This document shows, one piece after another, positions 6,029 through 55,015 of a stretch of DNA of 64,000 nucleotides. The notes under the pieces were generated by a model that did not search any database, had not been told where the DNA came from, and saw only the letters and a list, made by a program, of their open reading frames with translations. The position numbers and the translations under genes are program-made. Origin of the DNA: an uncultured Clostridia bacterium (GTDB taxonomy: Bacteria; Bacillota; Clostridia; UMGS1883); the NCBI GenBank assembly GCA_934454525.1, contig CAKSFM010000001.1, forward strand, positions 109,502 to 173,501, given 5' to 3'. Positions within the stretch are counted from its first letter, which is position 1. The number at the start of each line of letters is the position of its first letter.

Positions 6029-6030
6029 TT

Positions 6031-21100: not shown

Positions 21101-21316
21101 GGGGATGTTAAAAAACTCCGGAACGCAAGAAAAGAAGAAAAAGCAGATATTACAGGCAGCATAGCTATTGTAATTAGCTTTTATTAAAGGTAGAAAAATC
21201 AAAAATTTGATTTTTCAAAGAATCACTTCTTTTCTTGCTATCAACAAACTTCGCCGCTCGGCGTACCTATGTACGCCGTCGGGTAACCCAAAGCTAACGC
21301 TTTGGCTCAGTTTGTT
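21101..21316 (+). repeat. About 200-bp intergenic element (copy 1). It begins 7 nt after the nifJ stop. An inverted copy lies at 54812-55015
   Basis: Conserved blocks 'ggggatgttaaaaaRctccggaacgcaagaaaagRagaaaaagca' and 'tagaaaaatcaaaaatttgatttttcaaagaatc...ttttcttgctatcaacaaacttcgccgctcggcgtacctatgtacgccg'. Confidence 0.85.
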
Positions 21317-21356
21317 AATTCCAAAGCTTTTTTCCTATCCCCTTGTAAAAGCAGGA

Positions 21357-21399
21357 GCTGTTTAAAAAGTCAATTGGCTTTTTAAACAGCCCCTTTTTA
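21357..21399 (+). terminator. Intrinsic terminator (13-bp stem) downstream of nifJ and the repeat
   Basis: 'gctgtttaaaaag tcaattgg ctttttaaacagc ccctttttat'. Confidence 0.75.
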
Positions 21400-21481
21400 T
21401 CATAATATGCTGACGAGTATTGACAAAATCTGACCTTTATGGTAAAGTTAAAACATAAAGCTGTAAAGGCAGGCTTGCTTA

Positions 21482-23008
21482 ATGATTGTCAAGGTATTCA
21501 CCGGCGCCGTTTCCGGACTGGACGGTAATATTGTGATTGTTGAGGCGGACTTTTCAAACGGTCTGCCTTCTTTTGATGTTGTGGGATTGCCCGATGCAAC
21601 CGTTAAGGAAGCAAAGGAGCGTGTGCGCGCGGCGCTGCGCAACAGCTCGTTTGAATTTCCGGCAAAGCGCGCCGTTATCAACCTTGCGCCTGCCGATTTG
21701 CGAAAAGAGGGAACGCAGTTCGATTTGCCGATTGCCGTTTCTGTTCTTGCAGGTACCGGTCAGCTTAAAGCCGATTTGAACGAATACATTCTCATCGGAG
21801 AGCTTGGGCTTTCCGGCGAGCTGCGCCCTGCCCGCGGTGTTTTGTCGATAGCCGCGTGTGCAAGGGAGCACGGATTCAGAAAGATAATTGTTCCGTGCCA
21901 AAATGCTGATGAAGCGGCGCTTGCCGGAAATATTGAGGTGTACGGCGCGCGCTGCCTTGCAGATGTTTACTGTCATCTCACCGGCGAAAAAACGCTTGAG
22001 CGCGTAGTATGCGACATTGAGGGGATTTTCCGCCGCGAGGCTGAATATGACGTTGACTTCTCCGATATGCGCGGTCAGCAGCTGCTGCGCCGCGGTATTG
22101 AGGTCGGGGTCAGCGGCGGTCACAACCTGCTTATGATCGGCAGTCCCGGAAGCGGAAAATCAATGGCTGCGCGCAGGATTCCGACAATTCTTCCCGAGAT
22201 GACTCTGGACGAAGCAATTGAGGTTACTAAAATTTACTCAGTTGCCGGCGAGCTTGAAGAAAACAGGCAGCTGATTGCGCAGCGCCCGTTCAGAGCGCCG
22301 CATCATACTGCCAGCGCCGCAAGCATAGTCGGCGGCGGCGCAAAAGCACGACCGGGGGAAATTTCGCTTGCGCATAACGGAGTTCTTTTTCTTGATGAAT
22401 TCCCGGAGTATCGCAAGGACGTTATCGAATCGATGCGCCAGCCGCTTGAGGATAAAAAGATAACCGTGACGCGGTCAGCATGTTCATACACATACCCGTG
22501 CAACACAATGCTTGTTGCGGCGCTGAACCCCTGCCGCTGCGGCTACTACGGCGACGGCAGCGGCAGATGCCGCTGCTCGGAAAGCGATGTGCATAAATAT
22601 CTCGGGAAAATCAGCGGACCGATGCTTGACAGAATAGATATACAGCTTGAAGCCGCACCGGTGAAATACGGTGATTTGAAAGCGGCGCGCGGAGAAAGCT
22701 CCGCGGTTATTAAGGAGCGCGTTGAAGCTGCAAGGCGGATTCAGGCGCTGCGGTATAAAAATGAGAGTATTACAACGAATGCGCAGCTCGGCGGCGCACT
22801 CGTTGAAAAATACTGCCCTGTCGGCGAAGAGGAAAGCGAAATGCTTAAAAGAGCCTTTAATGACCTTGGACTGACGGCAAGAGCATATACGCGTATTCTT
22901 AAGGTTGCGCGCACAATTGCCGATATGGATGCACGCAGGGAGATAAACACAATGGATATTGCCGAGGCGATAGGCTATCGCAGCCTTGACAGAAAATATT
23001 TCAGATAA
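21482..23008 (+). CDS. comM: YifB/ComM-family Mg-chelatase-like AAA+ ATPase
   Basis: Walker A 'GSPGSGKSM', Lon-like N-domain, 508 aa. Confidence 0.85.
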   Translation: MIVKVFTGAVSGLDGNIVIVEADFSNGLPSFDVVGLPDATVKEAKERVRAALRNSSFEFPAKRAVINLAPADLRKEGTQFDLPIAVSVLAGTGQLKADLNEYILIGELGLSGELRPARGVLSIAACAREHGFRKIIVPCQNADEAALAGNIEVYGARCLADVYCHLTGEKTLERVVCDIEGIFRREAEYDVDFSDMRGQQLLRRGIEVGVSGGHNLLMIGSPGSGKSMAARRIPTILPEMTLDEAIEVTKIYSVAGELEENRQLIAQRPFRAPHHTASAASIVGGGAKARPGEISLAHNGVLFLDEFPEYRKDVIESMRQPLEDKKITVTRSACSYTYPCNTMLVAALNPCRCGYYGDGSGRCRCSESDVHKYLGKISGPMLDRIDIQLEAAPVKYGDLKAARGESSAVIKERVEAARRIQALRYKNESITTNAQLGGALVEKYCPVGEEESEMLKRAFNDLGLTARAYTRILKVARTIADMDARREINTMDIAEAIGYRSLDRKYFR

Positions 23009-23132
23009 TAGGGAGGAAAATGGATTGAAGAAAAATTCAAGAATCGGATTAGCGCTGATTACGGTGCTGATTCTGGCAGCGGCAATGCCTTGCGGCGTTT
23101 TTGCTGCTGACAAAGCAAAGGAAACGATTAAA

Positions 23133-24629
23133 ATGGCAGGCACGTTCTGGGCGCTTGTGCCGCCGATTATTGCCATTGCGCTTGCGCTCATCACAAAAGA
23201 GGTTTACAGCTCTCTTTTCGTAGGCATTGTTGTCGGCGGACTTTTTTCCGCAAACTTTTCGCCCGTAAAAGCGCTTGACAACATGGTAAATGAAGGATTG
23301 ATTGCAGCCGTTTCCGGAACTGCCGGAATATTTATATTCCTTGTTATTCTCGGCGTTATTGTTGCGCTTGTAAACAAAGCCGGCGGCAGCGCAGCATTCG
23401 GCGAATGGGCAAAGAAGAATATAAAATCACGCAGCGGCGCAATGCTTGCAACGTTTGCACTCGGCGTACTTATATTTATTGACGACTATTTTAACTGTCT
23501 GACGGTCGGGTCGGTTATGCGCCCCGTAACGGATGGTCATAAAATCTCACGTGCGAAGCTTGCGTATCTTATCGATGCAACAGCGGCGCCGGTCTGCATG
23601 ATAGCGCCGATTTCATCATGGGCGGCTGCCGTTTCGGGATATATCGAGGGCAGTGACGGACTTGCACTTTTCATACGCACAATTCCTTACAACTTTTATT
23701 CACTTTTCACATTTGTATTTATCATTGCAATTTCTCTCATGCAGTTTGACTACGGTCCGATGAGGCTTCATGAATACAATGCTGCCGAAAAAGGCGATTT
23801 ATATACCTGCGGCGACCGCGCTGAGGCGCAGAAAACAGAGCCGTGCGCAAGGGGCAGGGTTATTGACCTTGTTCTTCCGGTTGTGCTCCTCATTATTATG
23901 TGCGTACTCGCGCTTATATATGCCGGCGGATTCTTCTCCGGCGAAAGCTTTGTAAATGCATTTGCCGGCACCGATGCAACGGTCGGTCTTCCTATGGGCG
24001 GTCTTGTTGCGCTTGTACTTATAATCATTTATATGGCGCTGCGCGGCATTGTTTCATTCAAAGAATCAATGGAATGTATTCCTCAGGGATTTATCGCCAT
24101 GGTTCCGGCAATTCTTATTCTCACGTTTGCAACATCACTTAAAAACATGACCGGTCTTCTTGAAGCCGATACATTTGTTGCAGGACTTATGGAAGGCTCT
24201 GCAAAGGGACTGGCAAACTTCCTCCCGGCAATCATTTTCCTTGTCGGCTGCGGACTTTCGTTTGCAACCGGAACATCTTGGGGAACATTCGGCATACTCA
24301 TTCCGATTGTTGTCGGCATATTCCCGCGCGAAAGCGAGCTTTTGATAATAGCAATGTCGGCTTGCCTTGCAGGCGCTGTTTGCGGCGATCACTGCTCCCC
24401 CATTTCCGACACAACAATTATGTCCTCAGCAGGAGGCGAATGTAACCATATAAACCACGTTTCAACGCAGCTTCCGTATGCTATTACGGTTGCAGCCATT
24501 TCATTCGTGATGTACATTGTTGCGGGCATGGTTCAAAACGTTTGGCTGCCGCTCATTCTCGGCACGGCAGCAACGCTGGGATTTCTGTTTATTATGCGCT
24601 CAGCGACTCGCAGCAAGCCTATAGAATAA
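23133..24629 (+). CDS. nhaC: Na+/H+ antiporter, NhaC family
   Basis: Polytopic membrane protein. The start is preferred at ATG 23133 (RBS AAGGAAA). An in-frame TTG at 23025 after GGAGGA would add a signal-peptide-like 36-aa extension. Confidence 0.7.
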   Translation: MAGTFWALVPPIIAIALALITKEVYSSLFVGIVVGGLFSANFSPVKALDNMVNEGLIAAVSGTAGIFIFLVILGVIVALVNKAGGSAAFGEWAKKNIKSRSGAMLATFALGVLIFIDDYFNCLTVGSVMRPVTDGHKISRAKLAYLIDATAAPVCMIAPISSWAAAVSGYIEGSDGLALFIRTIPYNFYSLFTFVFIIAISLMQFDYGPMRLHEYNAAEKGDLYTCGDRAEAQKTEPCARGRVIDLVLPVVLLIIMCVLALIYAGGFFSGESFVNAFAGTDATVGLPMGGLVALVLIIIYMALRGIVSFKESMECIPQGFIAMVPAILILTFATSLKNMTGLLEADTFVAGLMEGSAKGLANFLPAIIFLVGCGLSFATGTSWGTFGILIPIVVGIFPRESELLIIAMSACLAGAVCGDHCSPISDTTIMSSAGGECNHINHVSTQLPYAITVAAISFVMYIVAGMVQNVWLPLILGTAATLGFLFIMRSATRSKPIE

Positions 24630-24632
24630 CCT

Positions 24633-24659
24633 AAAAAAACTGCCGGCGGCAGTTTTTTT
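24633..24659. terminator. Bidirectional intrinsic terminator
   Basis: 'aaaaaaactgccggcggcagttttttt'. Confidence 0.8.
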
Positions 24660-24741
24660 AGTTATATTATATTCCGCATAGCAAAAAAGACGCTTCACAG
24701 GGTGAAACGCCTTCCTCCGTTCATTTCAATGAAAGCTCAGA

Positions 24742-24930
24742 TCAGATAGCTCTGACAACTTTGCCGCTTCTCAGGCAACGTGAGCAAACATGGATTGTCT
24801 TAGGAGTGCCGTTAACAACAGCCTTAACTGTTTTAACATTGGGCTTCCAGGCACGGTTGCTTCTTCTGTGAGAATGGCTTACCTTAATTCCGAAAGTAAC
24901 GCCCTTTCCGCATACATCACACTTAGCCAT
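24742..24930 (-). CDS. rpmB: 50S ribosomal protein L28
   Basis: 'MAKCDVCGKGVTFGIKVSHSHRRSNRAWKPNVK...HVCSRCLRSGKV'. Confidence 0.95.
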   Translation of the reverse strand: MAKCDVCGKGVTFGIKVSHSHRRSNRAWKPNVKTVKAVVNGTPKTIHVCSRCLRSGKVVRAI

Positions 24931-25052
24931 ATATTTTACCTCCTTAGGATTACATTACATAATAACGTGCAAGAGATATTTTAACAGATAACACGGTAAA
25001 ATGCAAGCTTTTTTTTAATTTTTTTAAAAAAAATCGAATAAATTGCCTATTT

Positions 25053-25544
25053 TTAATATCCAAGCATATTCCCCAGGCTGTCATCGTCATCTATCCAATC
25101 ACGCTGAACATCAATCACGGTATATTTATCCTTGGAGTTTCTGATAATAACCTTATCAATACCGGAGTTAATCACAAGCCTTTTGCACATTGAGCAGCTT
25201 GTGGCATTTTCAACGTACTCACCTGTTTCCATATCCCGTCCTGCAAGATAAAGCGTTGCGCCGATCATATCGCGCCGCGATGCACTGATTATAGCGTTTG
25301 CTTCGCTGTGAACGCTGCGGCAAAGTTCATAACGCTCTCCGCGCGGAATATTAAGCTGCTGACGGCGGCAAAAGCCGAGATCAATGCAGTTCTTCCTGTT
25401 TCGCGGCGCACCTGTATAGCCTGTTGATATAATCTCATCATTTTTTACAATAATTGAGCCGTAGTTCCTCCGCAGACATGTTCCGCGCTCCAAAACGGTC
25501 GATGCAATGTCAAGATAATAATTATGTTTGTCGCGTCTGTCCAT
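25053..25544 (-). CDS. dCMP deaminase (cytidine/deoxycytidylate deaminase family, ComEB-like)
   Basis: Zinc motifs 'HSEANAI' and 'CSMCKR'. Confidence 0.8.
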   Translation of the reverse strand: MDRRDKHNYYLDIASTVLERGTCLRRNYGSIIVKNDEIISTGYTGAPRNRKNCIDLGFCRRQQLNIPRGERYELCRSVHSEANAIISASRRDMIGATLYLAGRDMETGEYVENATSCSMCKRLVINSGIDKVIIRNSKDKYTVIDVQRDWIDDDDSLGNMLGY

Positions 25545-25637
25545 AATAAAAGCTCCTTTCCGTGCTGCAGTTACTATAGATTTTATCCTAAAACAGCCGT
25601 TTTGTCAATAAAAATCGGCATTTTATGCGTTAATATT

Positions 25638-26288
25638 CTATTTTCCGGTCACCTTCGTTAAATAAGTGTTCGGTACTGAGCCGACAATCAGTGTTTGCGC
25701 AATCGGCATCCCCGAATTGATATGCAGCGTACTGCTTGCCATCGGAATGAGCACCTCCATATCCACCGTGACAGTCAGATTCACAGTATGAATCGTTTGA
25801 TTTATTCCGGCTTCTTCAAAGGTATGCGAAATATCCGCATTTGTAACGGAAATCGGAACAAAGCGCACCGAAATGCTCGGCCCTATCCCGGCAAGGAGAT
25901 CCAGTCCGAAAACACTGCTCAGGGGGATTTTTCGTTTAACGCGCGAAATTTTGTCAAGCTCATCTCCGATTGAGATGCCAAGGTCGTTTGTGAAACGGTT
26001 AATCAGCGTACTGTTCGATGAAACGGAGGTCACCTTGCCGTCCTTATCCCTTGAAATCAGAACGATTTTATCATAACTGAAAAATTCCTCCAGCATGACT
26101 TTTTTCACCTCATCGTCAACAACCTGCGAAACAACGTTTTTTGCATATGCCTGCGACACGCGGATAATCGCCGGGCGCAGAGATACCGAAAAAACATATA
26201 AAAAAGCCGTTATCATCGCTGTTATTGCCGAAAGAATCATAATAGCGCCGAGTTTATTCCGGCGTGATTTTCTTTTCATAAACATCAC
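25638..26288 (-). CDS. yunB: Sporulation protein YunB-like
   Basis: N-terminal TM helix followed by a conserved YunB-like domain; size and composition fit. This is a motif-recall call only. Confidence 0.5.
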   Translation of the reverse strand: MMFMKRKSRRNKLGAIMILSAITAMITAFLYVFSVSLRPAIIRVSQAYAKNVVSQVVDDEVKKVMLEEFFSYDKIVLISRDKDGKVTSVSSNSTLINRFTNDLGISIGDELDKISRVKRKIPLSSVFGLDLLAGIGPSISVRFVPISVTNADISHTFEEAGINQTIHTVNLTVTVDMEVLIPMASSTLHINSGMPIAQTLIVGSVPNTYLTKVTGK

Positions 26289-26385
26289 CTGTCATTATAA
26301 TTTATGCGGTGCCTGAATTTTTAGTGCTGTTACTATTGAATTGATTGAATTAATGTGCTATACTTACAGTTAGGCAGGTGATAAA

Positions 26386-27324
26386 ATGGAAAAACAGCAG
26401 CATATGACAAGCATCGGCGGCAGCGCCGTTATGGAGGGCGTTATGATGCGCGGACCGAAAGAAATTGCAACCGCAGTCCGCAAGCCCGACGGAGAAATAG
26501 AAATCGATAAAAGAGCTGTCAGCTCGCTTGTTACAAAGTATCATGTGAATAAAATCCCGGTTATCCGCGGAGTGTTCGCATTTTTTGACTCGATGATTTG
26601 CAGCATCCGCTCACTTATGTGGAGTGCGGAGTTTTTTGACACTGAGGATGACAGCAGCAAGGAATCGAAGTTTGACAAGTGGCTTGATGACAAGTTCGGA
26701 GACAAGGTTAAGGACATTGTGATTTACTTTTCGGTTTTTGTTTCACTTATTTTTTCAATCGGACTTTTCTTCCTCCTTCCGAACCTTGTTGTCGGATTCG
26801 CGGGAAAATACATCCACGGAAATGCGGTAAAATCACTTCTTGAGGGCGTTATAAGAATTGCAATTTTCCTCGGATATATTTTGCTCGTTTCGCAGATGGA
26901 GGACATAAAAAGAGTGTTCCAGTATCACGGAGCGGAGCATAAGACAATTTTCTGCTATGAAGCGGGACTTCCGCTGACGGTTGAAAATGCGCGCACAATG
27001 CCAAGGCTTCATCCGCGCTGCGGAACAAGCTTTCTTGTGTTCGTTATGGTAATAAGCATTGTTTTATTTTCATTTATTTCGTGGGATAATATGCTTACGC
27101 GCCTCGGGTTGAGGCTTCTGCTTCTTCCCGTTGTTGCCGGACTGAGTTATGAGATTATCCGCTGGGCGGGCAGAAGTCAGAATATTATTGTGCGCATTAT
27201 AAGCAAGCCGGGGATGTGGATTCAGAAAATCACCACGCGTGAGCCTGACGACAGCCAGCTTGAGGTTGCAATCGCATCAATGGAGGCAGTTATTACGGGG
27301 AATAAAGAGGATGACAAATGGTAA
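26386..27324 (+). CDS. DUF1385 (YqhQ-like) membrane-associated protein, co-transcribed with prmC
   Basis: 'IGGSAVMEGVMMRGP...YHGAEHKTIFCYEAG'. It overlaps the prmC start (ATGGTAA). Confidence 0.75.
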   Translation: MEKQQHMTSIGGSAVMEGVMMRGPKEIATAVRKPDGEIEIDKRAVSSLVTKYHVNKIPVIRGVFAFFDSMICSIRSLMWSAEFFDTEDDSSKESKFDKWLDDKFGDKVKDIVIYFSVFVSLIFSIGLFFLLPNLVVGFAGKYIHGNAVKSLLEGVIRIAIFLGYILLVSQMEDIKRVFQYHGAEHKTIFCYEAGLPLTVENARTMPRLHPRCGTSFLVFVMVISIVLFSFISWDNMLTRLGLRLLLLPVVAGLSYEIIRWAGRSQNIIVRIISKPGMWIQKITTREPDDSQLEVAIASMEAVITGNKEDDKW

Positions 27325-28160
27325 ACGAAATTCTCCGCAGCGCCGCGGCACAGCTGACGGATTCGGACGAGCCGCTGCTTGACGCGCGTGTGCTTCTGGC
27401 GCATGCCGCCGGTATGCGCGATTCCGCACTTCTGTTCCGTGATTTAACCGAGAGCGAAAAAAAAACGTTTGACGGCTATATTGCACTCCGGAAAAAGGGA
27501 ATACCCGTTGCCTATATATTAAAGGAAAAGGAATTTATGGGTCTTTCGTTTTATGTGGATGAAAGCACACTTATTCCCCGGCCGGACACAGAGTGTCTTG
27601 TTGAAAAAGTGCTTGAGCTGAACATAAATAAGCCGCGTATTCTTGATATATGCACGGGGAGCGGCTGCATCGGGATCAGTCTTGCATATATGGCTGAGGA
27701 TTCCGAAGCGCTTTTGACAGACATTTCTGACGGTGCGCTTAAAGCCGCCGAGATTAACATTGAGCGGCATAATCTTAAAAGCCGCGTTTCGGCACAAAAA
27801 CTGGACGTGCTGACGGAGGAATTTCCGGCAGGCTTTAATATCATTGCGTCAAATCCGCCATATATCCCCACAGATATTGCAAGCTCTCTCGACGTGAGCA
27901 AAAGCGAGCCGTTTCTTGCTCTTGACGGCGGCGCGGACGGACTTAAGTTCTATCGTGAAATAATAAAAAAAAGCGCTGCCGTGCTCCCTGCGGACGGGGT
28001 GCTTGCGCTTGAAATCGGGTTTGACCAGGGAAAAAGCGTGAAAGCGCTTGCACTCGAATATTTCCCTTATGCCGATGTTTTTTGTGATTATGCGGCAAAT
28101 GACCGCGTTGTGATATGCCGGCGCTGCGATATCGGCATAAAAAAGGGCGAAAATGTTTGA
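27318..28160 (+). CDS. prmC: Release-factor glutamine N5-methyltransferase PrmC (HemK)
   Basis: 'NPPYIP' motif and SAM-binding 'LDICTGSGCIG'. Confidence 0.9.
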   Translation: MVNEILRSAAAQLTDSDEPLLDARVLLAHAAGMRDSALLFRDLTESEKKTFDGYIALRKKGIPVAYILKEKEFMGLSFYVDESTLIPRPDTECLVEKVLELNINKPRILDICTGSGCIGISLAYMAEDSEALLTDISDGALKAAEINIERHNLKSRVSAQKLDVLTEEFPAGFNIIASNPPYIPTDIASSLDVSKSEPFLALDGGADGLKFYREIIKKSAAVLPADGVLALEIGFDQGKSVKALALEYFPYADVFCDYAANDRVVICRRCDIGIKKGENV

Positions 28161-28167
28161 AAAAAGT

Positions 28168-28196
28168 ATTGCATTTTCAAAAATGTTATGCTATAA
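28168..28196 (+). promoter_or_regulatory. Sigma-A promoter TTGCAT-17-TATAAT for rpmE
   Basis: Boxes at 28168-28173 and 28191-28196. Confidence 0.6.
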
Positions 28197-28259
28197 TGGG
28201 TAGTGCTTGATTGATGTTAATTATTTTTTATTTATTTTTCTCAGAAAGAGGTGAATTCC

Positions 28260-28463: not shown

Positions 28464-28472
28464 TTCAGAGAG

Positions 28473-28499
28473 GAGCAGCAATAAGCGCTGCTCTTTTTG
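28473..28499 (+). terminator. Intrinsic terminator after rpmE
   Basis: 'gagcagcaataagcgctgctc ttttt'. Confidence 0.8.
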
Positions 28500-48633: not shown

Positions 48634-48643
48634 CTTGTTCTCC

Positions 48644-49663
48644 TCACATAAATATTTTGCGGATATCCCCGACCGTTACAATCACTGCCAAAGCCATAAG
48701 CAGCACAAATCCGGCAATGTTGATATATGCCAGAATGTCGGGGCGCACCTTTTTTCCCGTTATAAACTCCCACAGAGCAAAGATAATGCTGCCGCCGTCA
48801 AGCGCAGGGAACGGAAGCAGATTGAACACACCCAGATTCACGGTTATCATTGCAAATAACATCAGCACGTTTATCGCCGTGTACGGATTATCCTTTTCTT
48901 TTGTAACCTCGCCGACAACGGAAACAATCTCAACGGGACCGGAAAGCGTGTCAATACCGGTTTTTCCCGTCACCAAATCTCCGACTGCGCTCACAACCGC
49001 CTTTGAAATATAAACCGTGTCGTAAAACGCATACCGCGGAGCGGTAAGCACCGTTGCCTTTTCGCGGCGGAACGATACTCCCAGCTTATAGCCGTACGGC
49101 GTTTCAATGGGTTTAAGCTTTATAACCTTTTTCTCACCGCCGCGTTTAAGAGTTACCTTTATGTCACTGCCGTCCGCATGACCCATAAAAAGCGACACAT
49201 CGTCAAACGTGTGTACACGCGTTCTGTCGAGCTTCAGCAGCTCATCCCCCGGCTTCAGCTGCGTCTGAACCGTTTCGTATCCCTCTGCAATATTTTCTAT
49301 AACCGTCGGAATAATACCGGTTTGAGAATTTATTATCATGAATATTATCCACCCCAGGATAATATTCATCGTTGCACCGGCAATCAGAATTGCAATTCTT
49401 TTCAGCGGGGGAAGATTCAGAAACGAGCGCGGATTGTCGCTCTCCTCCATATCATTTTCGCCCTCAAGCTGCACAAAGCCTCCGATCGGGAAAAGACGGA
49501 TTGAGTAACGCGTTTCACCCTTTCCGAAAGACGCAAGCCGCGGTCCCATTCCGATGGCAAATTCATGCACCTGAACGCCAAAGCATTTTGCAACCGTGAA
49601 ATGTCCGAGCTCGTGCAGAATAATCATTATTCCGAATCCGATAACAGTAATTAAAACAGCCAA
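48644..49663 (-). CDS. rseP: Site-2 protease, M50 family (RseP/RasP)
   Basis: 'HELGHF' HExxH in TM1 and a PDZ domain. Confidence 0.85.
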   Translation of the reverse strand: MAVLITVIGFGIMIILHELGHFTVAKCFGVQVHEFAIGMGPRLASFGKGETRYSIRLFPIGGFVQLEGENDMEESDNPRSFLNLPPLKRIAILIAGATMNIILGWIIFMIINSQTGIIPTVIENIAEGYETVQTQLKPGDELLKLDRTRVHTFDDVSLFMGHADGSDIKVTLKRGGEKKVIKLKPIETPYGYKLGVSFRREKATVLTAPRYAFYDTVYISKAVVSAVGDLVTGKTGIDTLSGPVEIVSVVGEVTKEKDNPYTAINVLMLFAMITVNLGVFNLLPFPALDGGSIIFALWEFITGKKVRPDILAYINIAGFVLLMALAVIVTVGDIRKIFM

Positions 49664-50803
49664 TCAATCACATTCTTTCACAATTTCTCGCGCCGCTCTG
49701 TCAGCGGCAAAAATATCCTCAATGCGCGGATTTTCAACGCTTCTGCATCTGCGCATTGCTTCTTCAATCAGCATTGTTATCTCGGTAAAGCGGCACTTCC
49801 CCTTTAAGAACATTGAAACCGCTTCCTCATTCGCTCCGTTGAACACTGCGCACATTGTTCCGCCCTCGGCAGCCGCTTTTTTTGCAAGGCGCACAGCCGG
49901 AAATGTTTCGTTATCGACATCATAAAACGTCAGTTTTCCGGCTTTCACAAGGTCAAGCCTTTCCGACACGGGCGCACTGCGCTGAGGATATGAAAGCGCA
50001 TAGCTTATCGGAAGCTTCATATCGGGCACTCCGAGCTGTGCGATAACGCTTCCGTCGCACATTTCAACCATTGAATGGACTATGCTCTCGCGGTGAATAA
50101 CGGGGTCAATGCAATCCGCTCCGACGCCGAAAAGGTGCATTGCTTCGATTATTTCAAGTCCTTTATTCACAAGCGTGGCGCTGTCAATTGTGATTTTTGC
50201 GCCCATAGTCCAGTTCGGATGCTTCAGCGCCTTTTCCGGGGTTACACTTTCAAGCTCTGCGCGCGTTTTTCCGAAAAACGGACCGCCCGAAGCCGTGATT
50301 ATAATTCTTTTCAGGAAACTGCGCTGATTCGATATCGACTGAAAAATCGCGCTGTGCTCGCTGTCAACGGGAATTATTTCAACGCCTTTTTCCCTTGCGC
50401 GCTTCATAACCGATTCCCCTGCGGTGACAAGCGTTTCTTTATTCGCGAGCGCAATTCTTTTTCCGGCGTCAATTGCACAGAGCGTCGGGCGAAGTCCCGC
50501 AATGCCGACAATCGCCGTCACAACTGTTTCGGCGGCGGTTTCAGCCGCACATTCGCATAAGCCGTCCGCCCCGGAAAGAACACGCACGGACGTATCGCGC
50601 ACACGCATTTTCAAATCCGCGGCGCTTTTTTCATCTGTCATGCAGGCAATGCGCGGTTTGTATTTCCTTATCTGTTTTTCCAAAAGACCCACATTGCTGT
50701 GCGCCGTTAAAGCGTCAACCGAGTATTCGCCGGTAATATCGCAAACATCAAGCGTTTGCGTTCCGATTGAACCCGTTGAGCCGAGTATCGCAATTTTTTT
50801 CAT
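49664..50803 (-). CDS. dxr: 1-deoxy-D-xylulose 5-phosphate reductoisomerase
   Basis: 'KKIAILGSTGSIGTQTLDV' NADPH-binding N-terminus. Confidence 0.95.
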   Translation of the reverse strand: MKKIAILGSTGSIGTQTLDVCDITGEYSVDALTAHSNVGLLEKQIRKYKPRIACMTDEKSAADLKMRVRDTSVRVLSGADGLCECAAETAAETVVTAIVGIAGLRPTLCAIDAGKRIALANKETLVTAGESVMKRAREKGVEIIPVDSEHSAIFQSISNQRSFLKRIIITASGGPFFGKTRAELESVTPEKALKHPNWTMGAKITIDSATLVNKGLEIIEAMHLFGVGADCIDPVIHRESIVHSMVEMCDGSVIAQLGVPDMKLPISYALSYPQRSAPVSERLDLVKAGKLTFYDVDNETFPAVRLAKKAAAEGGTMCAVFNGANEEAVSMFLKGKCRFTEITMLIEEAMRRCRSVENPRIEDIFAADRAAREIVKECD

Positions 50804-50806
50804 TTG

Positions 50807-51616
50807 TTACCTCGCTGTGAATATCGGGAAAAAGGATATGAAGTAATAAACGATCGGCGAAACGAAAATCAGGCTGTCAAATCTGTCCATAACACCGCCG
50901 TGACCGGGCATTATATGCCCGAAATCCTTAATCCCATGCTCCCTTTTGATAATAGAGGCGCACAAGTCGCCCGTCTGCGAAAAAATACCGCACAGAATTC
51001 CGAGAACGATTACTCCCGGCAGGTTAAGGTTTACAGCGGCAAAATGTTTAACGCAGAGTGCATACACAGCCATCACAAGCATTGTGCCGAGTGCGCCGCC
51101 GACTGCGCCCTCAACCGTTTTTTTCGGACTGATTGACGGCGCAAGCTTATGCTTTCCGAACAACATTCCGCAGAAATATGCGCAGGTGTCCGTTATCCAG
51201 CTTCCTATAAAAATCAGAAACAGATTCAAAAGACCGTAATCCGTGTGCCGGACGCCCGTTATATGGAAGAATGACAGCGACAGCATCATCGTTACCGAAA
51301 AAAACTCCGTAACGGACAGGAAATTATACCGCTTGTGGTCAAACAGCATCGTAAGCAGCAGAACCGCAATATACAAAAACACTGTGATTTCGAGCGGCAT
51401 ATCCGTAAGACTCATTCGGAACGGCATGAATACCGCAACCAAGATGCTTGCCGTCATCATAATTTTATGCGTTTGCAGTCCGAGTGCTGACATCACCTCA
51501 AAAACCGCCAGTGCCGTTATAACGGCAACCGCAATATCCAGAACAAGCGCATTGCTGAATATTACAAGCATAAGCAATATTATTCCAAAAAAAGCGCTGA
51601 TTAGTCTTTGCTTCAT
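50807..51616 (-). CDS. cdsA: Phosphatidate cytidylyltransferase
   Basis: Polytopic membrane protein with a C-terminal 'GHGGVMDRFDSL' signature. Confidence 0.9.
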   Translation of the reverse strand: MKQRLISAFFGIILLMLVIFSNALVLDIAVAVITALAVFEVMSALGLQTHKIMMTASILVAVFMPFRMSLTDMPLEITVFLYIAVLLLTMLFDHKRYNFLSVTEFFSVTMMLSLSFFHITGVRHTDYGLLNLFLIFIGSWITDTCAYFCGMLFGKHKLAPSISPKKTVEGAVGGALGTMLVMAVYALCVKHFAAVNLNLPGVIVLGILCGIFSQTGDLCASIIKREHGIKDFGHIMPGHGGVMDRFDSLIFVSPIVYYFISFFPIFTAR

Positions 51617-51687
51617 ATAAAAATGCTCACTTTCTTATGCGCGGTATCCGCGCATTTTTTCCAAACGGCTGCGTTCGCAGTCCGGTT

Positions 51688-52437
51688 TCACACTCCGCCG
51701 AAACGCCGGTTTCTCTTCTGATAATCATGAACTGCGCGCCGCAAGTCATTTTCCGAAAAATCCGGCCAGAGAACATTATCGAACCACAGCTCGCTGTAGG
51801 CGCTCTGCCACATAAGGAAGTTGCTGAGCCGATACTCTCCGCTCGGTCTGATGATAAGGTCAGGGTCATGCTGACCGCTCGTGTCAAGGTATTCTTCAAT
51901 CGTTTTTTCGTCAATGTCCTCTGCACTGAGCTTTCCCTCGGCGCAGAGCTTTGCAATTTTGCGCACGGCAAGGGTTATTTCCCTCCGTCCGCCGTAATTT
52001 AGCGCAACATTAAGCAAAAGACCACCGTTGTTTTCAGTGGCCTTTTCCATGTAGCGAAGTTTTCTTTGAAAATCTTCGGAAAACGCCGATTCATCGCCTA
52101 TAAAATGGATTTTAACATCACGGCCGGCAAGTCTTGTCAGACCGTTGTCAAGATAATCCTCCAAAAGAGACATCAGCATGTCGACTTCTTCTTTCGGGCG
52201 TCGCCAGTTTTCCGTGGAAAATGCGTAAATGGTAACAATTTTTATTCCCATGTTACCGGCGTACTCCACAATCTTTTCAAAGGTTTTCGCTCCCGCTGCA
52301 TGACCGGCAGTTCTGGGAAGACCGCGCCGTTTTGCCCAGCGGCCGTTCCCGTCCATTATAATGCCGATATGCACCGGTAAATTTTCAAGGTCCACTTCAG
52401 TGCGGTTTCTTTTGCCGAAAATTTCTTTCAGCTTCAT
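51688..52437 (-). CDS. uppS: Isoprenyl transferase (undecaprenyl diphosphate synthase)
   Basis: 'HIGIIMDGNGRWAKRRGLPR'. Confidence 0.95.
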   Translation of the reverse strand: MKLKEIFGKRNRTEVDLENLPVHIGIIMDGNGRWAKRRGLPRTAGHAAGAKTFEKIVEYAGNMGIKIVTIYAFSTENWRRPKEEVDMLMSLLEDYLDNGLTRLAGRDVKIHFIGDESAFSEDFQRKLRYMEKATENNGGLLLNVALNYGGRREITLAVRKIAKLCAEGKLSAEDIDEKTIEEYLDTSGQHDPDLIIRPSGEYRLSNFLMWQSAYSELWFDNVLWPDFSENDLRRAVHDYQKRNRRFGGV

Positions 52438-52447
52438 TTCACACCAC

Positions 52448-53002
52448 TCATATTTCCATTATTTCTTTGTTTTTCTTGTCCGCAAGCTTGTCAATTTCCT
52501 TAATCTGAGCATCGATTATGTCCTGAATTTCTTTTTCGATATTCTTAAGGTCATCCTCGGTTATTTCGCTCTTTTTCTTCATTGCCTTGTATTTTTCGAT
52601 TTCATCGCGCCTGATTCCGCGGATAACAACCTTGCAGTCCTCCGCTTTTTTTGCAACACTCTTTGTAAGCTCCTTACGTCTGTCCTCCGTCAGCTGAGGA
52701 AATGACAGGCGCAGCATTTTACCGTCATTCTGCGGATTGATGCCGATTTCCGACGCCTGAATTGCCTTCTCAATTGCTTTTACAAGGCTTGCATCCCACG
52801 GCTGAATTGTGATTGTGCGCGCGTCCGGCGTTGCGATTGCCGCAACCTGACTCACGGGCGTCTGCGTTCCGTAATAGTCAACGCTTACCTTATTAAGCAC
52901 TGAAGCGTTTGCCCTGCCGGCTCTGATTGTTCCGAGATCCTCCAGAAAGTAGTTAATCGCCTTGTCAATTTTTGCATTAAGCTCCGGATATTCGTTTTTC
53001 AT
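52448..53002 (-). CDS. frr: Ribosome recycling factor
   Basis: 184 aa, RRF family. Confidence 0.95.
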   Translation of the reverse strand: MKNEYPELNAKIDKAINYFLEDLGTIRAGRANASVLNKVSVDYYGTQTPVSQVAAIATPDARTITIQPWDASLVKAIEKAIQASEIGINPQNDGKMLRLSFPQLTEDRRKELTKSVAKKAEDCKVVIRGIRRDEIEKYKAMKKKSEITEDDLKNIEKEIQDIIDAQIKEIDKLADKKNKEIMEI

Positions 53003-53066
53003 GTTTTGATTCCTCCCGAATTATTATATTATATTGTAAAAGAAATTATCAAACCTGAATTCATCT

Positions 53067-53792
53067 TTATTCAGCATAAACAAGTGTTCCGATTTCCGCT
53101 CCCTCAAGCACACGCTTTATGTTGTCCGGTTCGGAAAGTCCGAACACGCGTATCGGCATCTTATTATCCATGCAAAGGGAGGTTGCCGTTGTGTCCATAA
53201 CGCCCAGCCCCTTGTTAAGCACATCGATATAAGTAATTTTGTCAAACTTCACTGCGTCGGGATTGAATGCCGGGTCGCTGTCATAAACGCCGTCAACCTT
53301 CTTCGCCAGTAAAATAGCCTCTGCGTCGATTTCCGCAGCACGAAGCGCAGCCGTTGTATCCGTTGAGAAGAACGGATTTCCCGTGCCGCAGCCGAATATT
53401 ACAACGCGCCCTTTTTCAAGATGACGGATTGCGCGCCCTCTGATATACGGCTCGGCAATCTGGCGCATTTCAATCGCCGTCTGAACGCGCGTTTCGATTC
53501 CCGCTCTTTCAAATGCGTCGCACAAAGCGAGCGAGTTTATAACCGTTGCAAGCATTCCCATATGGTCGGCACGTGTGCGCTCCATGTTTTCGCCCGTTCT
53601 TCCGCGCCAGAAGTTTCCTCCGCCGACAACAACCGCAATCTGCACACCGAGGGCAACGCACTCCTTAATTGTTTTCGCAATCGATTCAAGCGTCGGTTCG
53701 TCAAGACCGAAACCTTTTTCTCCGGCAAGCGCCTCTCCGCTCAGCTTTATAAGCACTCTTTTATATTTTGTCTGCATTTTCCAATACCTCAC
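53067..53792 (-). CDS. pyrH: UMP kinase
   Basis: '[11 protein letters not shown]' N-terminus, 241 aa. Confidence 0.95.
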
Positions 53793-53879
53793 TTTTTATC
53801 TTCTGAATACTATTTTAACATATTTATTTGCATTTTGTAAATATCTATAGTATAATAAGTTTAAATTATTTTTTTAGAG

Positions 53880-54803
53880 GTGAGTTTGATGAGTAATTTC
53901 CCTCGTTTATGGGAGAATCTGTTAAATTCCGAAACCGGATTGCCGGTCGTTGTCAAGTCCATTCAGCGAATTATGGACGATCATTATCATCCCGACTCCG
54001 TGAGTATGCACGAGGAGTTTGAGCTTGTCTATATTCAGGAGCTGGAACGCGGCGCATTTGAAATAGACGGCGAACTTGTTATGCTCAGACCGAATGACCT
54101 GCTGCTTATAAAACCGAGAACGCCGCATGTGCTTAAAATCGAAAGCAACCGCCCGTGCCGCTTTCTTGTTCTGAAATTCTCTTTTGCGCGCAGCCAGGAA
54201 AAAAATTATTCCGGAATAAGCCTCAATGATTTCCTTTCATTTATATCTGACAGCACCGACAGCTGCAGTTACTTCACAATTTCAAATATATACTGCACAA
54301 ACATCGCAGCGCTCATGCAGCAGATTATGCATGAGAACAAATCTCCCGATGCGGAAAGCGACTTTCTCCGCAGCCTGCTCACAATGGAGCTGTTTGTCTG
54401 GCTGAGCCGCAGCCTGCGTACGCAGTGGGAAACAAATCTTTCAACCAAAGGGCACAAGCTTCAGGAAATGCTTGAGGCGGCGCGTGTATATATTGATGAA
54501 AATTATAATACCGACATATCTCTTTCCGATATTGCCGGCTATGTTTACATATCCACAAGCCATTTTGCGCGTGCGTTTAAGAAATATTATGACATCAGTC
54601 CGATTCAGTATCTTTTAAGCGTACGCATTGAAAAAGCGCGGCAATATCTTGAGGAAACAAATCTCAAGGTCGGAGAAATTGCCTCCGCTGTCGGATTTTC
54701 GGCTCAGCAGCGCTTCAATGATATTTTCCGCAAGCAAACCGGAATGTCGCCGAGCGAATACCGCCAGCACTACAAGGAAAGTGTTTTGAACATGGAGCAG
54801 TAA
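53880..54803 (+). CDS. AraC-family transcriptional regulator (N-terminal cupin, C-terminal AraC HTH)
   Basis: C-terminal 'ISLSDIAGYVYISTSHFARAFKKYYDISPIQY...VGFSAQQRFNDIFRKQTGMSPSEYR'. Confidence 0.85.
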   Translation: MSLMSNFPRLWENLLNSETGLPVVVKSIQRIMDDHYHPDSVSMHEEFELVYIQELERGAFEIDGELVMLRPNDLLLIKPRTPHVLKIESNRPCRFLVLKFSFARSQEKNYSGISLNDFLSFISDSTDSCSYFTISNIYCTNIAALMQQIMHENKSPDAESDFLRSLLTMELFVWLSRSLRTQWETNLSTKGHKLQEMLEAARVYIDENYNTDISLSDIAGYVYISTSHFARAFKKYYDISPIQYLLSVRIEKARQYLEETNLKVGEIASAVGFSAQQRFNDIFRKQTGMSPSEYRQHYKESVLNMEQ

Positions 54804-54811
54804 CGCGTGGC

Positions 54812-55015
54812 TGCGAACAAACTTCGCCGCTCGGCGTACATAGGTACGCCGAGCGGCGAAGTTTGTTGATAGCAAGAAAAGGGGGATTCTTTGAAAAATC
54901 AAATTTTTGATTTTTCTACTTTAATGAATCCAAACTGCAAGAATTATATTTCATGTAAATATATGCTTTTTCTCCTTTTCTTGCGTTCCGGAGCTTTTTA
55001 ACATCCCCGTCGTTT
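54812..55015 (-). repeat. About 200-bp intergenic element (copy 2, inverted relative to copy 1). It begins at the first base after the upp stop and contains a perfect 24-bp-stem palindrome (54816-54867)
   Basis: rc(54812-55015) aligns with 21101-21316 in two blocks of about 50 and about 90 bp. The palindrome is 'aacaaacttcgccgctcggcgtac-atag-gtacgccgagcggcgaagtttgtt'. A second, AT-rich hairpin is 'gaaaaatcaa attt ttgatttttc'. Confidence 0.85.

What the first reader, a model, noticed from the sequence alone, without database searches (positions are those of the whole stretch)
21101..55015. A roughly 200-bp element with a 24-bp perfect palindrome sits directly after the stop codons of nifJ and upp, in inverted orientation 33.5 kb apart
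Copy 1 (21101-21316) begins 7 nt after the PFOR stop. Copy 2 (54812-55015, reverse strand) begins at the very next base after the upp stop. So both have the same polarity relative to a highly expressed upstream gene. Both share a 5' block 'ggggatgttaaaaaRctccggaacgcaagaaaagRagaaaaagca', a divergent middle, and a 3' block carrying an AT-rich hairpin and a GC-rich palindrome. The palindrome is perfect in copy 2 ('aacaaacttcgccgctcggcgtac/gtacgccgagcggcgaagtttgtt') and interrupted by a 30-bp insertion in copy 1. There is no U-tract, so it is not a canonical terminator. Candidates are a 3'-UTR-derived sRNA, an RNA-stability or processing element, or a MITE. As inverted repeats of about 140 bp in total, the two copies could also mediate inversion of the entire 33-kb housekeeping segment.
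Basis: seen in the sequence. Interest (0 to 1): 0.55.

Follow-up and report, generated by a model that had tools for sequence, protein, structure and literature searches.

The report
Mobile structured repeat that replaces gene terminators
The two look-alike sequences after nifJ and upp are copies of a previously uncatalogued 300-base mobile repeat of uncultured gut Clostridia, which folds into a conserved three-armed structure, carries its own transcription terminator and takes the place of a gene's own terminator just after the stop codon.

Summary
Copy 1 (21101-21398, +) and copy 2 (54816-55008, -) each start 7 nt after a stop codon and are 84-89% identical. They belong to a family with tens of copies per genome in uncultured gut Clostridia MAGs. 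There is no Rfam, plasmid, phage or viral match.

The canonical unit has two parts. The first is a ~242-nt three-way junction closed by pairing of its two ends (97.7% of cells paired, 11 pairs with compensatory changes). The second is a sequence-conserved palindromic A-tract/hairpin/T-tract terminator.

Copy 1 is an intact canonical unit.

About 89% of copies lie sense to the upstream gene, mostly 0-10 nt after its stop. Near-identical strains (100.000% and 99.97% flanks at nifJ, 99.0% at upp) carry empty alleles with ordinary unique terminators. The element therefore replaces the native terminator. It leaves no target-site duplication and no transposase lies nearby.

Best reading: a mobile "portable 3' end", akin to pneumococcal SPRITE and BOX repeats. 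How it moves and what its RNA does are unresolved. No evidence was found for the proposed 33-kb inversion.

The parts
21091..21093 (+). TAA stop codon of the pyruvate:ferredoxin oxidoreductase gene (nifJ, ORF 17572-21093). The element starts 7 nt later.
   Evidence: Pfam POR/PFOR domains listed for this product
21100..21402 (+). The 303-nt segment present in the window. In otherwise identical strains a 53-nt native terminator region occupies this place. This is the unit that was gained.
   Evidence: L111 is 100.000% identical up to 21099 and 99.97% identical from 21403
21101..21342 (+). Copy 1, structured domain. It is the canonical three-way junction, running from GGGGATGTT to CCTATCCCC.
21101..21123 (+). 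P1 5' strand (GGGGAUGUUAAAAAACUCCGGAA). It pairs with 21319-21342.
21319..21342 (+). P1 3' strand (UUCCAAAGCUUUUUUCCUAUCCCC). This is the closing helix that joins the two ends.
21125..21238 (+). P2 arm. The nearly invariant stem is GCAAGAAAAG... (21125-21137) with ...CUUUUCUUGC (21226-21238). It encloses a variable hairpin (21139-21182) and the conserved AT hairpin (21193-21216).
   Evidence: short-loop variants
21243..21316 (+). P3 arm. The stem is AACAAACU (21243-21250) with AGUUUGUU (21309-21316). It encloses P3a (21253-21284, GC-rich quasi-palindrome) and P3b (21288-21305, CCAAAGC/GCUUUGG).
   Evidence: compensatory changes in P3, P3a and P3b
21345..21398 (+). Terminator module of copy 1: A-rich lead, the family-conserved palindromic hairpin (stem 21357-21390, loop CAATTG) and the T-run 21394-21398.
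54816..55008 (-). Copy 2, a truncated derivative. The 5' block, P2 arm and AT hairpin are kept. P3b, the P1 3' strand and the terminator module are lost.
54816..54867 (-). Perfect 24-bp palindrome of copy 2 (arms 54844-54867 and 54816-54839, loop 54840-54843). It derives from the P3/P3a quasi-palindrome. No U-tract follows on either strand.
   Evidence: comparison with the canonical alignment
54893..54916 (-). AT hairpin GAAAAAUCAAAAAUUUGAUUUUUC of copy 2, identical to 21193-21216.
55016..55018 (-). TAA stop codon of upp (ORF 55016-55645, minus strand).
54801..54803 (+). Stop codon of the convergent AraC-family regulator gene. The end of copy 2's palindrome lies 12 nt beyond it.

Best explanation
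The two sequences are copies of a non-coding, strain-variable interspersed repeat. It occurs in tens of copies per genome in a lineage of uncultured gut Clostridia.

**Unit.** The full unit is about 300 bp and has two parts. The first is a ~242-nt domain that folds as a three-way junction. Helix P1 pairs the element's two ends. P2 and P3 carry tips that vary in length. The second part is an A-tract, a sequence-conserved palindromic hairpin and a T-tract, which together make a bidirectional intrinsic terminator.

**Behaviour.** The unit acts as a mobile 'portable 3' end'. It is found immediately after the stop codon of an ordinary gene, in that gene's sense orientation, in the place of the gene's own terminator, which is missing from filled alleles. 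It makes no target-site duplication and carries no transposase. It must therefore be moved in trans, or by a recombination or repair process (inferred; mechanism unknown).

**Expected effect (inferred).** Once in place, it should be transcribed as the 3' UTR of the upstream gene, with transcription ending at its own terminator. The large fold next to the terminator is expected to protect the mRNA 3' end. Because it starts within a ribosome footprint of the stop codon, it could also affect translation termination.

**The two window copies.** Copy 1 (nifJ) is an intact, very recent acquisition. Copy 2 (upp) is older and degenerate. Its quasi-palindromic P3/P3a arm became a perfect palindrome, most simply by a fold-back template switch, and everything 3' of that arm was lost (inferred).
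For: - About 95 are true copies, and at least 30 lie in one MAG, CAKSDE01. A second set of 34 metagenome loci anchored on the 3' part shows the same architecture, and many of these copies sit at contig ends, as expected for repeats.
- **Architecture.** Offsets are constant in 48 copies, and copy 1 matches them exactly.
- **Structure.** 97.7% of cells are paired. 11 pairs show changes on both sides, against 3.3 +/- 1.3 in shuffles (0 of 500 shuffles reach it). Slid controls pair only 38-57%. The helices are kept while the tips vary: three kinds of short P2 loop, and 102-175-nt P3a expansions with 9 further compensatory pairs.
- **Terminator module.** It follows nearly every canonical copy and also occurs alone 16 times in 739 kb. 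Copy 1's terminator was detected by the scan.
- **Placement.** The upstream gene is co-oriented in 86 of 97 copies. The distance from the stop is mostly 0-10 nt (median about 5-6). In tandem-gene contexts the orientation is 39 sense to 4 antisense. Convergent contexts number 32. Orientation follows the adjacent gene even when that gene is in the local minority orientation (19 of 27).
- **Mobility and replacement, nifJ.** The empty allele has a unique 53-nt terminator. Its flanks are 100.000% identical over 1368 bp and 99.97% over 3106 bp.
- **Mobility and replacement, upp.** The empty allele has both native terminators in a 99.0% identical background with an identical AraC protein. A third, different composite element sits at upp in L007.
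- **Cross-species comparisons.** Orthologues without the element have unique native terminators. Only one orthologous placement was found between MAGs, which indicates turnover.
- **No TSD.** The longest shared flank word averages 4.25 nt against 4.13 in controls.
- **No transposase nearby.** No recurrent neighbouring protein or transposase was found.
Against: - **No mechanism.** No mobilising enzyme or donor copy was identified. Replacement without a target-site duplication fits no well-characterised transposition mechanism.
- **Alternative source of the polymorphism.** The presence/absence differences could in principle come from homologous exchange of pre-existing alleles between strains rather than de novo insertion.
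- **No transcript data.** Terminator use, mRNA stabilisation and effects on translation are all inferred.
- **Covariation is not proof of selection on RNA.** Intra-palindrome template switching can generate apparent compensatory changes in DNA, and copy 2 shows such 'perfecting'.
- **Strand choice is weak.** Pairing is 97.7% on the sense strand and 92.5% on the antisense strand, and the difference rests mainly on three inherited G-U pairs. Both strands of copy 1 fold equally well.
- **Copy 2 lacks a terminator.** It has no U-tract terminator yet is retained, so supplying a terminator is not obligatory.
Confidence: 0.6

Rival explanations
1. It is primarily a selected functional RNA. The three-way-junction domain would be a cis-acting 3'-UTR module, for example a platform for an RNA-binding protein or RNase, or a sensor of translation termination. 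Alternatively it would be the precursor of an abundant 3'-UTR-derived sRNA. In this reading its spread to many genes is driven by benefit to the host.
For: - The sense orientation bias is far stronger than the ~61-63% reported for pneumococcal repeats (PMC3049150): 86 of 97 overall and 39 to 4 in tandem contexts. A bidirectional terminator alone would be tolerated in either orientation.
- Junction sequences are conserved and helices covary, with variable tips, as in many structured RNAs.
- The element starts within a ribosome footprint of the stop codon.
- G-U pairs favour the sense strand.
Against: - Turnover between species is high and the element is polymorphic within a species.
- There is no association with any class of gene.
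- About 10% of copies are inverted or lie elsewhere.
- Truncated copies such as copy 2 persist.
- It is in no Rfam family.
- The derived G-U versus A-C changes are not significantly biased, 32 against 24 cells.
Confidence: 0.2
2. It is a hairpin-dependent single-strand DNA transposon relic, of the IS200/IS605-PATE or REPIN type, moved in trans by a Y1 (HUH) transposase or RAYT encoded elsewhere in the genome.
For: - There is no target-site duplication.
- The element is heavily folded and both ends are retained while the interior varies.
- One strand folds slightly better than the other.
- Such elements are known to associate with extragenic palindromes (own knowledge; REPIN paper PMC3116915 found, not read).
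Against: - There is no constant 4-5-nt target next to the left end. The flank is only A-rich.
- Orientation follows the neighbouring gene rather than the locus majority. The two window copies lie on opposite strands within 34 kb.
- Native sequence is deleted on arrival, which these transposases do not do.
- No Y1-like ORF was found in the loci fetched so far (over 1 Mb), using IS200 TnpA and YafM sequences written from memory. This is a weak test.
Confidence: 0.1
3. It is a classical MITE, cut and pasted by a DDE transposase that recognises its terminal inverted repeats.
For: - The ends resemble each other in inverted orientation: GGGGATGTTAAAAA against GGGGCTGTTTAAAAA.
- It is multi-copy, non-coding and AT-rich.
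- A genuine TIR-bearing MITE does sit in another terminator hairpin of the same window (397-675).
Against: - No target-site duplication was found in 40 full copies.
- Filled alleles lack the native sequence instead of simply interrupting it.
- No related IS was seen.
Confidence: 0.05
4. The two inverted copies serve as, or cause, an inversion switch of the 33.5-kb segment between them.
For: The two copies are inverted repeats that share perfect runs of 50 and 35 nt.
Against: - Overall identity is only 86.7% over 196 nt.
- None of the contigs read shows a nifJ-element-AraC junction.
- The 103-kb contig ERZ28613880 scaffold_374 is collinear with the window and has only copy 2.
- Copy 1 is a recent arrival in one sublineage.
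Confidence: 0.03

Closest known systems
[quoted passage not shown] 2011, PMC3049150
   Same: - Both are interspersed repeats of a Firmicute that look like terminators.
- Both lie close to the 3' ends of genes and are strongly enriched between convergent genes.
- Neither has an IS with matching ends.
- SPRITE was proposed to have been co-opted as a terminator. Here convergent contexts make up 32 of 71 classified copies, and nearly all canonical copies carry a hairpin with a T-run.
   Different: - SPRITE is a single 18-bp duplex plus a U-rich tract. This element adds a 242-nt three-way-junction domain upstream of the terminator.
- Its orientation bias is much stronger (about 89% against about 63%).
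- It is shown here to replace native terminators.
- Sequence relatedness to SPRITE was not tested.
BOX elements (boxA-boxB(n)-boxC) and RUP of S. pneumoniae
   Same: - Both are modular, tightly folded repeats whose two ends pair with each other.
- In both, the interior varies in length while the ends are kept.
- Both are co-transcribed with neighbouring genes and are expected to affect their expression (PMC3049150).
   Different: - BOX varies by tandem boxB units. This family varies by expansions at helix tips.
- BOX has no built-in terminator and no tight coupling to stop codons.
- RUP makes target duplications and has an IS630 partner. This family shows neither.
REP/BIME of enterobacteria and REPINs of Pseudomonas
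   Same: - Both are extragenic palindromic repeats, often just downstream of genes and mosaic in composition.
- REP/BIME are known to stabilise upstream mRNA or attenuate transcription. REPs within about 15 nt of a stop codon have been reported to impair translation termination (own knowledge; BIME attenuation is also cited in PMC3049150).
   Different: - REPs are 20-40 nt units, whereas this unit is about 300 nt with a three-way junction.
- No RAYT was found (a weak test).
- REPs are not reported to delete the native terminator on arrival.
Correia elements (Neisseria) and ERIC/IRU (enterobacteria)
   Same: Both are 100-170-bp folded repeats in transcribed intergenic DNA that change mRNA processing, termination or stability (PMC3049150 background; own knowledge).
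   Different: - Correia elements have 26-bp TIRs and a TA duplication.
- ERIC is a simple imperfect palindrome.
- Neither carries a dedicated terminator module or sits systematically within 10 nt of stop codons.

Membership tests
Classical MITE | Many short non-coding copies dispersed in the genome | tested here: met
   More than 100 loci were returned and at least 30 lie in one MAG. The apparent small ORF is not conserved: 20 of 101 copies read ATG TAA.
Classical MITE | Terminal inverted repeats | tested here: inconclusive
   The left end GGGGATGTTAAAAA resembles the inverse of the right end, GGGGCTGTTTAAAAA. However, the right end is also simply the 3' arm of the terminator hairpin.
Classical MITE | Target-site duplication | tested here: not met
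   In 40 full copies the longest shared flank word averages 4.25 nt, against 4.13 +/- 0.25 in shuffled pairings. Filled and empty alleles show replacement, not duplication.
Classical MITE | Parent IS with matching ends | tested here: inconclusive
   No recurrent neighbouring ORF and no transposase was found among 76 upstream genes. Whole genomes could not be searched.
REPIN / REP-RAYT system | 20-40-nt palindromic units in inverted pairs, with a RAYT gene flanked by them | tested here: not met
   The unit is about 300 nt with a three-way junction. No Y1-like ORF was found in the sampled loci, using query sequences written from memory, which is a weak test.
IS200/IS605-derived palindrome-associated element | Constant 4-5-nt target abutting the left end, with orientation tied to replication | tested here: not met
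   The left flank is A-rich (65-74% A) but not constant. Orientation follows the adjacent gene in 19 of 27 loci where that gene is in the minority orientation.
Intrinsic (Rho-independent) terminator | G+C-containing stem-loop directly followed by a U-run | tested here: met
   Met for copy 1 only: stem 21357-21390 followed by CCCTTTTTAT, and the same module follows nearly all canonical copies. Not met for the copy 2 palindrome.
SPRITE-like terminator repeat | Interspersed terminator-like repeat enriched at the 3' ends of genes and between convergent genes | tested here: met
   76 of 101 copies lie within 40 nt of an upstream stop. Contexts are 32 convergent and 39 tandem. Compare PMC3049150. 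This is a functional class, and sequence homology to SPRITE was not tested.
Any Rfam 15 RNA family | Covariance-model match | tested here: not met
   No hit on the element at gathering scores in the window. No hit at E<=10 in 20900-21500. No hit at E<=0.05 in six loci with long variants.
Integron attC site | Imperfect palindrome after each cassette gene, in arrays next to an integrase | tested here: not met
   Copies follow scattered housekeeping genes such as PFOR, upp, aldolase, tRNA synthetase, MreB and DnaA. They are not in cassette arrays.
3'-UTR-derived sRNA | A stable processed transcript from the 3' UTR | not testable with these tools
   No transcript data are available.

The most novel reading that the evidence does not exclude
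The element is a new kind of mobile unit that propagates by swapping itself for intrinsic terminators. The swap would be transcription-aware and one-step, leaving no target duplication. It would be mediated by an unknown hairpin- or terminator-directed recombinase, by templated break repair, or by an RNA intermediate. In this reading the conserved three-way-junction RNA is needed for that process or for control of the host mRNA.
Probability: 0.15. Interest if true: 0.8.

Novelty: new variant of a known kind. Interest (0 to 1): 0.5.

Why it matters
- **Scale.** If the reading is right, dozens of ordinary genes in an abundant but uncultured group of human-gut Clostridia end in a shared, imported 3' module instead of their own terminator. 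That module differs between near-identical strains.
- **Strain variation.** This would be a source of strain-level differences in mRNA 3' ends, and possibly in stability and expression.
- **Assembly.** The repeat breaks contigs and may create chimeric joins in metagenome assemblies of these organisms.
- **Mechanism.** Clean terminator-for-element replacement without a target duplication, together with near-absolute sense polarity, is not explained by the standard MITE, REP or IS200 models. It gives a concrete system in which to look for a terminator-directed mobilisation mechanism.
- **Annotation.** The family is absent from Rfam and could be added as a model for annotation.

Tried and rejected
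- **Known RNA family.** Rejected. Three Rfam searches gave no hit on the element.
- **Hammerhead-type core.** The junction strands are C, UAUC and AA, with no CUGANGA or GAAA motif (read from the alignment).
- **Plasmid, phage or virus origin.** No plasmid hit. There was one 33-nt phage hit at E = 5e-3, treated as chance. No viral contigs matched.
- **Small ORF starting at the ATG in GGGGATGTT.** Rejected. 20 of 101 copies read ATG TAA, some read CTG, and the frame downstream is not kept.
- **Target-site duplication.** None found. The single 13-nt flank repeat in L104 is an isolated case.
- **Transposase or other recurrent neighbour.** None found. Y1/RAYT-like ORFs: none found, with query sequences remembered rather than retrieved.
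- **Donor copy of copy 1.** An exact 28-mer of its variable hairpin gave no hit in JGI metagenomes. L131 and L132 show that other copies share at least 141 nt with it, but their flanks do not explain the ATCA filler.
- **Inversion junctions.** None seen.
- **Strand of folding.** Single-sequence energies do not discriminate: -113 kcal/mol on the sense strand against -124 on the antisense.
- **Naming the source genome.** No fetched locus overlaps the window outside the repeat.
- **Integron attC and group II intron readings.** Considered and dropped for lack of arrays, of core sites, and of domain V-like features.

Full report
**1. The observation**

- Reading both sites and aligning them confirms two related sequences in inverted orientation.
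- The repeat finder reports arms 21089-21151 / 54958-55020 (63 nt, 89% complementary), 21195-21278 / 54832-54915 (84 nt, 81%) and 21187-21224 / 54885-54922 (38 nt, 97%).
- A 19-mer of the 5' block, the AT hairpin and the GC arm each occur only at these two sites. Shuffles give 0-0.06 matches.
- Both copies begin with GGGG exactly 7 nt after a TAA stop. The nifJ ORF is 17572-21093 and the upp ORF is 55016-55645 on the minus strand.
- The perfect palindrome of copy 2 is 24 + 24 nt around a 4-nt loop (coordinates).
- Copy 1 is followed by a canonical terminator, stem 21357-21390 then CCCTTTTTAT. Copy 2 has none.

**2. It is a large repeat family**

About 95 are clearly the same element. All of these lie in MAGs labelled as uncultured Clostridia, Clostridiales, Oscillospiraceae or Ructibacterium, apart from one 2-kb contig of a MAG labelled Lachnospiraceae. 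The MAGs come from human, deer and buffalo gut, and at least 30 copies lie in the single MAG CAKSDE01. Seven hits in unrelated phyla are chance matches.
- Motif offsets define a canonical unit, measured from the GGGG start: AT hairpin at +92, P2 3' strand at +128, P3 3' strand at +208, P1 3' strand at +229 and terminator hairpin at +260. 48 copies carry all the internal motifs, and copy 1 of the window matches these offsets exactly.
- Copy 1 is therefore the intact form and extends to about 21398. Copy 2 lacks everything after the P3a hairpin.
- A profile of the family finds only these two copies in the window.
- The family is absent from Rfam, including the long variants. It is also absent from plasmids, phages and viral contigs.
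- A second, independent scan anchored on the 3' part found 34 metagenome loci. Where upstream sequence exists, the 5' block lies about 205 nt upstream, and in most loci an ORF stops 1-16 nt before it. Many hits sit at contig ends.

**3. Structure**

An alignment of 34 distinct canonical copies (A3) gives the following consensus fold.

| Helix | Pairing | Notes |
|---|---|---|
| P1 | GGGG.UG..AAAAAACU..GGAA with UUCC..AG.UUUUUU..UA.CCCC | closes the element by joining its two ends |
| P2 | GCAAGAAAAG with CUUUUCUUGC | nearly invariant (8 of its 10 pairs never vary); carries a variable hairpin and the conserved AT hairpin |
| P3 | AACAAACU with AGUUUGUU | encloses P3a and P3b |
| P3a | GC-rich quasi-palindrome | tip carries expansions in long variants |
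| P3b | CCAAAGC with GCUUUGG | 10 sequences show a compensatory G-C to A-U change |

- 97.7% of cells are standard pairs. 11 pairs carry changes on both sides, against 3.3 +/- 1.3 in shuffles (0 of 500 reach it). Sliding the partners drops pairing to 38-57%.
- Variants keep the helices and change the tips. Three different short loops close P2 in different MAGs. The P3a tip carries structured expansions of 102, 166 or 175 nt, with nine more compensatory pairs.
- In copies that read ACTGAGCC, P3 is a perfect 13-bp helix. Copy 1 has two mismatches there (read).
- The window copy folds into this structure as its minimum-energy fold (z = -9.6).

Two cautions apply. The antisense strand folds as well in single-sequence energy. 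Across the alignment the sense strand is better paired only because of about three inherited G-U pairs: 97.7% against 92.5%, and derived G-U versus A-C cells number 32 against 24.

**4. The terminator module**

- Nearly every canonical copy is followed 12-18 nt later by an A-rich stretch and a hairpin of the form GGCTGT(T/A)(T/A)AAAAA(G/A)TCAATTGA(C/T)TTTTT..ACAGCC, followed in most copies by a T-run, with compensatory variants.
- The A-tract, hairpin and T-tract arrangement is that of a bidirectional intrinsic terminator (own knowledge).
- The same hairpin also occurs alone 16 times in 739 kb of sampled loci.
- Short forms of the element consist of the 5' block joined directly to this hairpin.
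- The left end of the element (GGGGATGTTAAAAA) resembles the left arm of this hairpin. The unit therefore has TIR-like ends.

**5. Placement and polarity**

- With a simple gene call, the nearest upstream gene is co-oriented in 86 of 97 copies, and 76 of 101 copies start within 40 nt of its stop.
- The distance from stop to GGGG is mostly 0-10 nt, with a median of about 5-6 nt.
- In tandem-gene contexts the count is 39 sense to 4 antisense. 32 copies lie between convergent genes and 5 lie between divergent genes.
- Where the element's orientation is the minority in the rest of its locus, the adjacent upstream gene is still co-oriented in 19 of 27 cases. Polarity therefore follows the gene, not the replication-linked majority.
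- In the window the two copies lie on opposite strands, each sense to its own gene.
- Upstream genes are ordinary and diverse: 148 Pfam families in 76 proteins and no transposase.
- Ordinary terminator stems in the same loci start a median of 12 nt after stops. The element thus sits where terminators sit, though somewhat closer to the stop.
- For comparison, pneumococcal BOX, RUP and SPRITE repeats show only 61-63% strand bias. SPRITE shows the same enrichment near 3' ends and between convergent genes (PMC3049150).

**6. Mobility, and replacement of native terminators**

*nifJ site*
- Contigs encoding the identical downstream ChlI-like protein or the identical PFOR fall into two alleles.
- In the empty allele, TAACAAAAA is followed by a unique 53-nt terminator region (CACACCTGCCGG TTTGAAA CCGGCAGGTGTG TTTTT GTTACTGCAATGCGTT) and then TAATATG.
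- In the window allele, those 53 nt are replaced by 21100-21402 (303 nt).
- Contig L111 is 100.000% identical to the window over 1368 bp on the left and 99.97% over 3106 bp on the right.
- Empty alleles occur in both 99.97% and about 99.4% identical backgrounds. Filled alleles occur only in backgrounds at least 99.86% identical. A recent gain in the window's sublineage is therefore the parsimonious direction.

*upp site*
- The same 103-kb contig that is empty at nifJ carries copy 2, 100% identical to the window over 3915 bp, at collinear spacing.
- Contig L122, which is 99.0% identical and has an identical AraC protein, has the empty upp-AraC spacer with both native terminators. More distant relatives, 85-92% identical, have the same empty spacer.
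- About 118 nt of native DNA are replaced there, with the filler CGAC at the left junction.
- L007 carries yet another composite at the same place. It has the same 5' block, part of a different repeat and the family terminator arm. It takes the place of the upp terminator hairpin between the A-tract after the stop codon and the T-tract that followed the native hairpin, and keeps the AraC terminator.

*General features*
- Across species, orthologues without the element have unique terminators. One intergenic region holds the element in opposite orientations in two MAGs.
- Only one orthologous placement was seen between MAGs.
- No target-site duplication exists.
- Ends are sharp: GGGG on the left after an A-rich flank, and ...ACAGCCCC, usually followed by a T-run, on the right.

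**7. What copy 2 is**

Compared with the canonical sequence, copy 2 keeps the 5' block, P2, the variable hairpin, the AT hairpin and the 5' half of P3/P3a. After GTACGCCG it reads AGCGGCGAAGTTTGTT, the exact complement of its own 5' arm. P3b is gone, and the two P3 mismatches are 'corrected' (GGCGAAG in place of GGCTCAG). A fold-back template switch at the P3a quasi-palindrome would produce all of this at once; this is an inference. The P1 3' strand and the terminator module are deleted, and the palindrome abuts native DNA 12 nt from the AraC stop.

**8. Mechanism**

*Shown:* a multi-copy family, a conserved fold, a built-in terminator, sense polarity next to stop codons, presence/absence between near-identical strains, replacement of native terminators, and no target duplication.

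*Inferred:*
- The unit moves as a whole, since both ends are retained while interiors vary.
- It is mobilised in trans or by repair or recombination.
- It is transcribed as a 3' UTR and terminates transcription.
- The fold shields the mRNA 3' end.

The orientation bias is the strongest hint that the RNA matters. A bidirectional terminator would be tolerated either way, and junctions based on A-tract/T-tract microhomology would not impose polarity.

Against reading too much into the covariation: palindromes can self-correct by template switching, as copy 2 illustrates. Nested insertion of palindromic repeats into hairpin loops also occurs in this genome (see the second repeat at 397-675). Such insertions would lengthen helix tips without any selection.

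**9. Comparison and novelty**

- Functionally the nearest described thing is the pneumococcal SPRITE, a terminator-like interspersed repeat at the 3' ends of genes. It is combined here with the end-paired, modular, tightly folded architecture of BOX (PMC3049150).
- REP/BIME, ERIC and Correia elements are looser analogues.
- The element fails the target-duplication criterion of classical MITEs, the size and RAYT criteria of REPINs, and the constant-target criterion of IS200/IS605 derivatives. It matches no Rfam family.
- I therefore file it as a new variant of the known kind 'small interspersed intergenic repeats'. Three features are unusual: a 242-nt three-way junction, a dedicated terminator module, and terminator replacement with about 89% sense polarity.

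**10. The inversion idea**

The copies share only 86.7% identity over 196 nt. None of the PFOR contigs read shows a nifJ-element-AraC junction. The two contigs with foreign downstream flanks (L131, L132) join to other loci and may be assembly chimeras at the repeat.

Noticed in passing
window 374-684: A second, different repeat of 279 bp (397-675) has 26-bp terminal inverted repeats, AGCCACAGCCAGATAAGGAAGTATTG / CAATACTTCCTTATCGGGTTGTGGCT. It sits inside a terminator-type hairpin, GGCGGACAAAG (374-384) ... CTTT|TTGTCCGCC (to 684). A TT duplication is inferred. This looks like a true MITE nested in a terminator. Parts of the same repeat occur in L007 (upp site), L028, L140 and L155, in two cases fused to the family terminator hairpin.
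   Followed up: partly
window 284-357, 15216-15364 and 17177-17276: A third small mosaic repeat. A 57-nt perfect repeat lies at 15237-15293 and 17220-17276, and a 56-nt repeat at 302-357 and 15309-15364 (93% identical). They share ATACTGACGTATA-like motifs with the 397-675 repeat. Strain contigs differ by an indel near 17145-17234, so this repeat also looks polymorphic.
   Followed up: no
window 9029-9148 (-), 13693-13880 (+), 14935-15194 (+), 59143-59217 (+): Rfam gathering-score matches: an FMN riboswitch upstream of an ECF-transporter S-component gene, a 6S RNA, a T-box leader upstream of an AMP-binding enzyme gene, and a tRNA.
   Followed up: no
window 3013-8178: A block of direct repeats: three copies of 294 nt, three of 89 nt, and others. 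It spans several small minus-strand ORFs, among them a DUF4417 protein, a metallophosphoesterase and three ORFs with no Pfam hit. It looks like a tandemly duplicated gene cassette in a low-GC (37-40%) segment.
   Followed up: partly
L131:4700-5320 and L132:3810-4300: Two metagenome contigs join nifJ plus a near-identical element to unrelated downstream DNA. One joins to a YpeB-like gene. In the other the terminator stem carries compensatory differences (GAGACTG...CAGTCTC). These are either assembly chimeras at the repeat or real recombination between copies.
   Followed up: partly
L063 versus L105 (orthologous intergenic region in two MAGs): The same gene (74% protein identity) is followed by the element in sense orientation in one MAG. 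In the other MAG it is followed by the terminator hairpin and then the inverted element. This implies either independent arrivals or an in-place flip of the unit.
   Followed up: no
L104:3750-4100: This is the only copy with a long direct repeat of its flanks: AGAAGATATTATT occurs on both sides. All other copies lack any duplication.
   Followed up: no
window 1-217: The window opens with the C-terminal end of a tyrosine recombinase (Phage_integrase family, E = 3e-16). It lies directly upstream of the repeat-rich spacer at 220-690.
   Followed up: no
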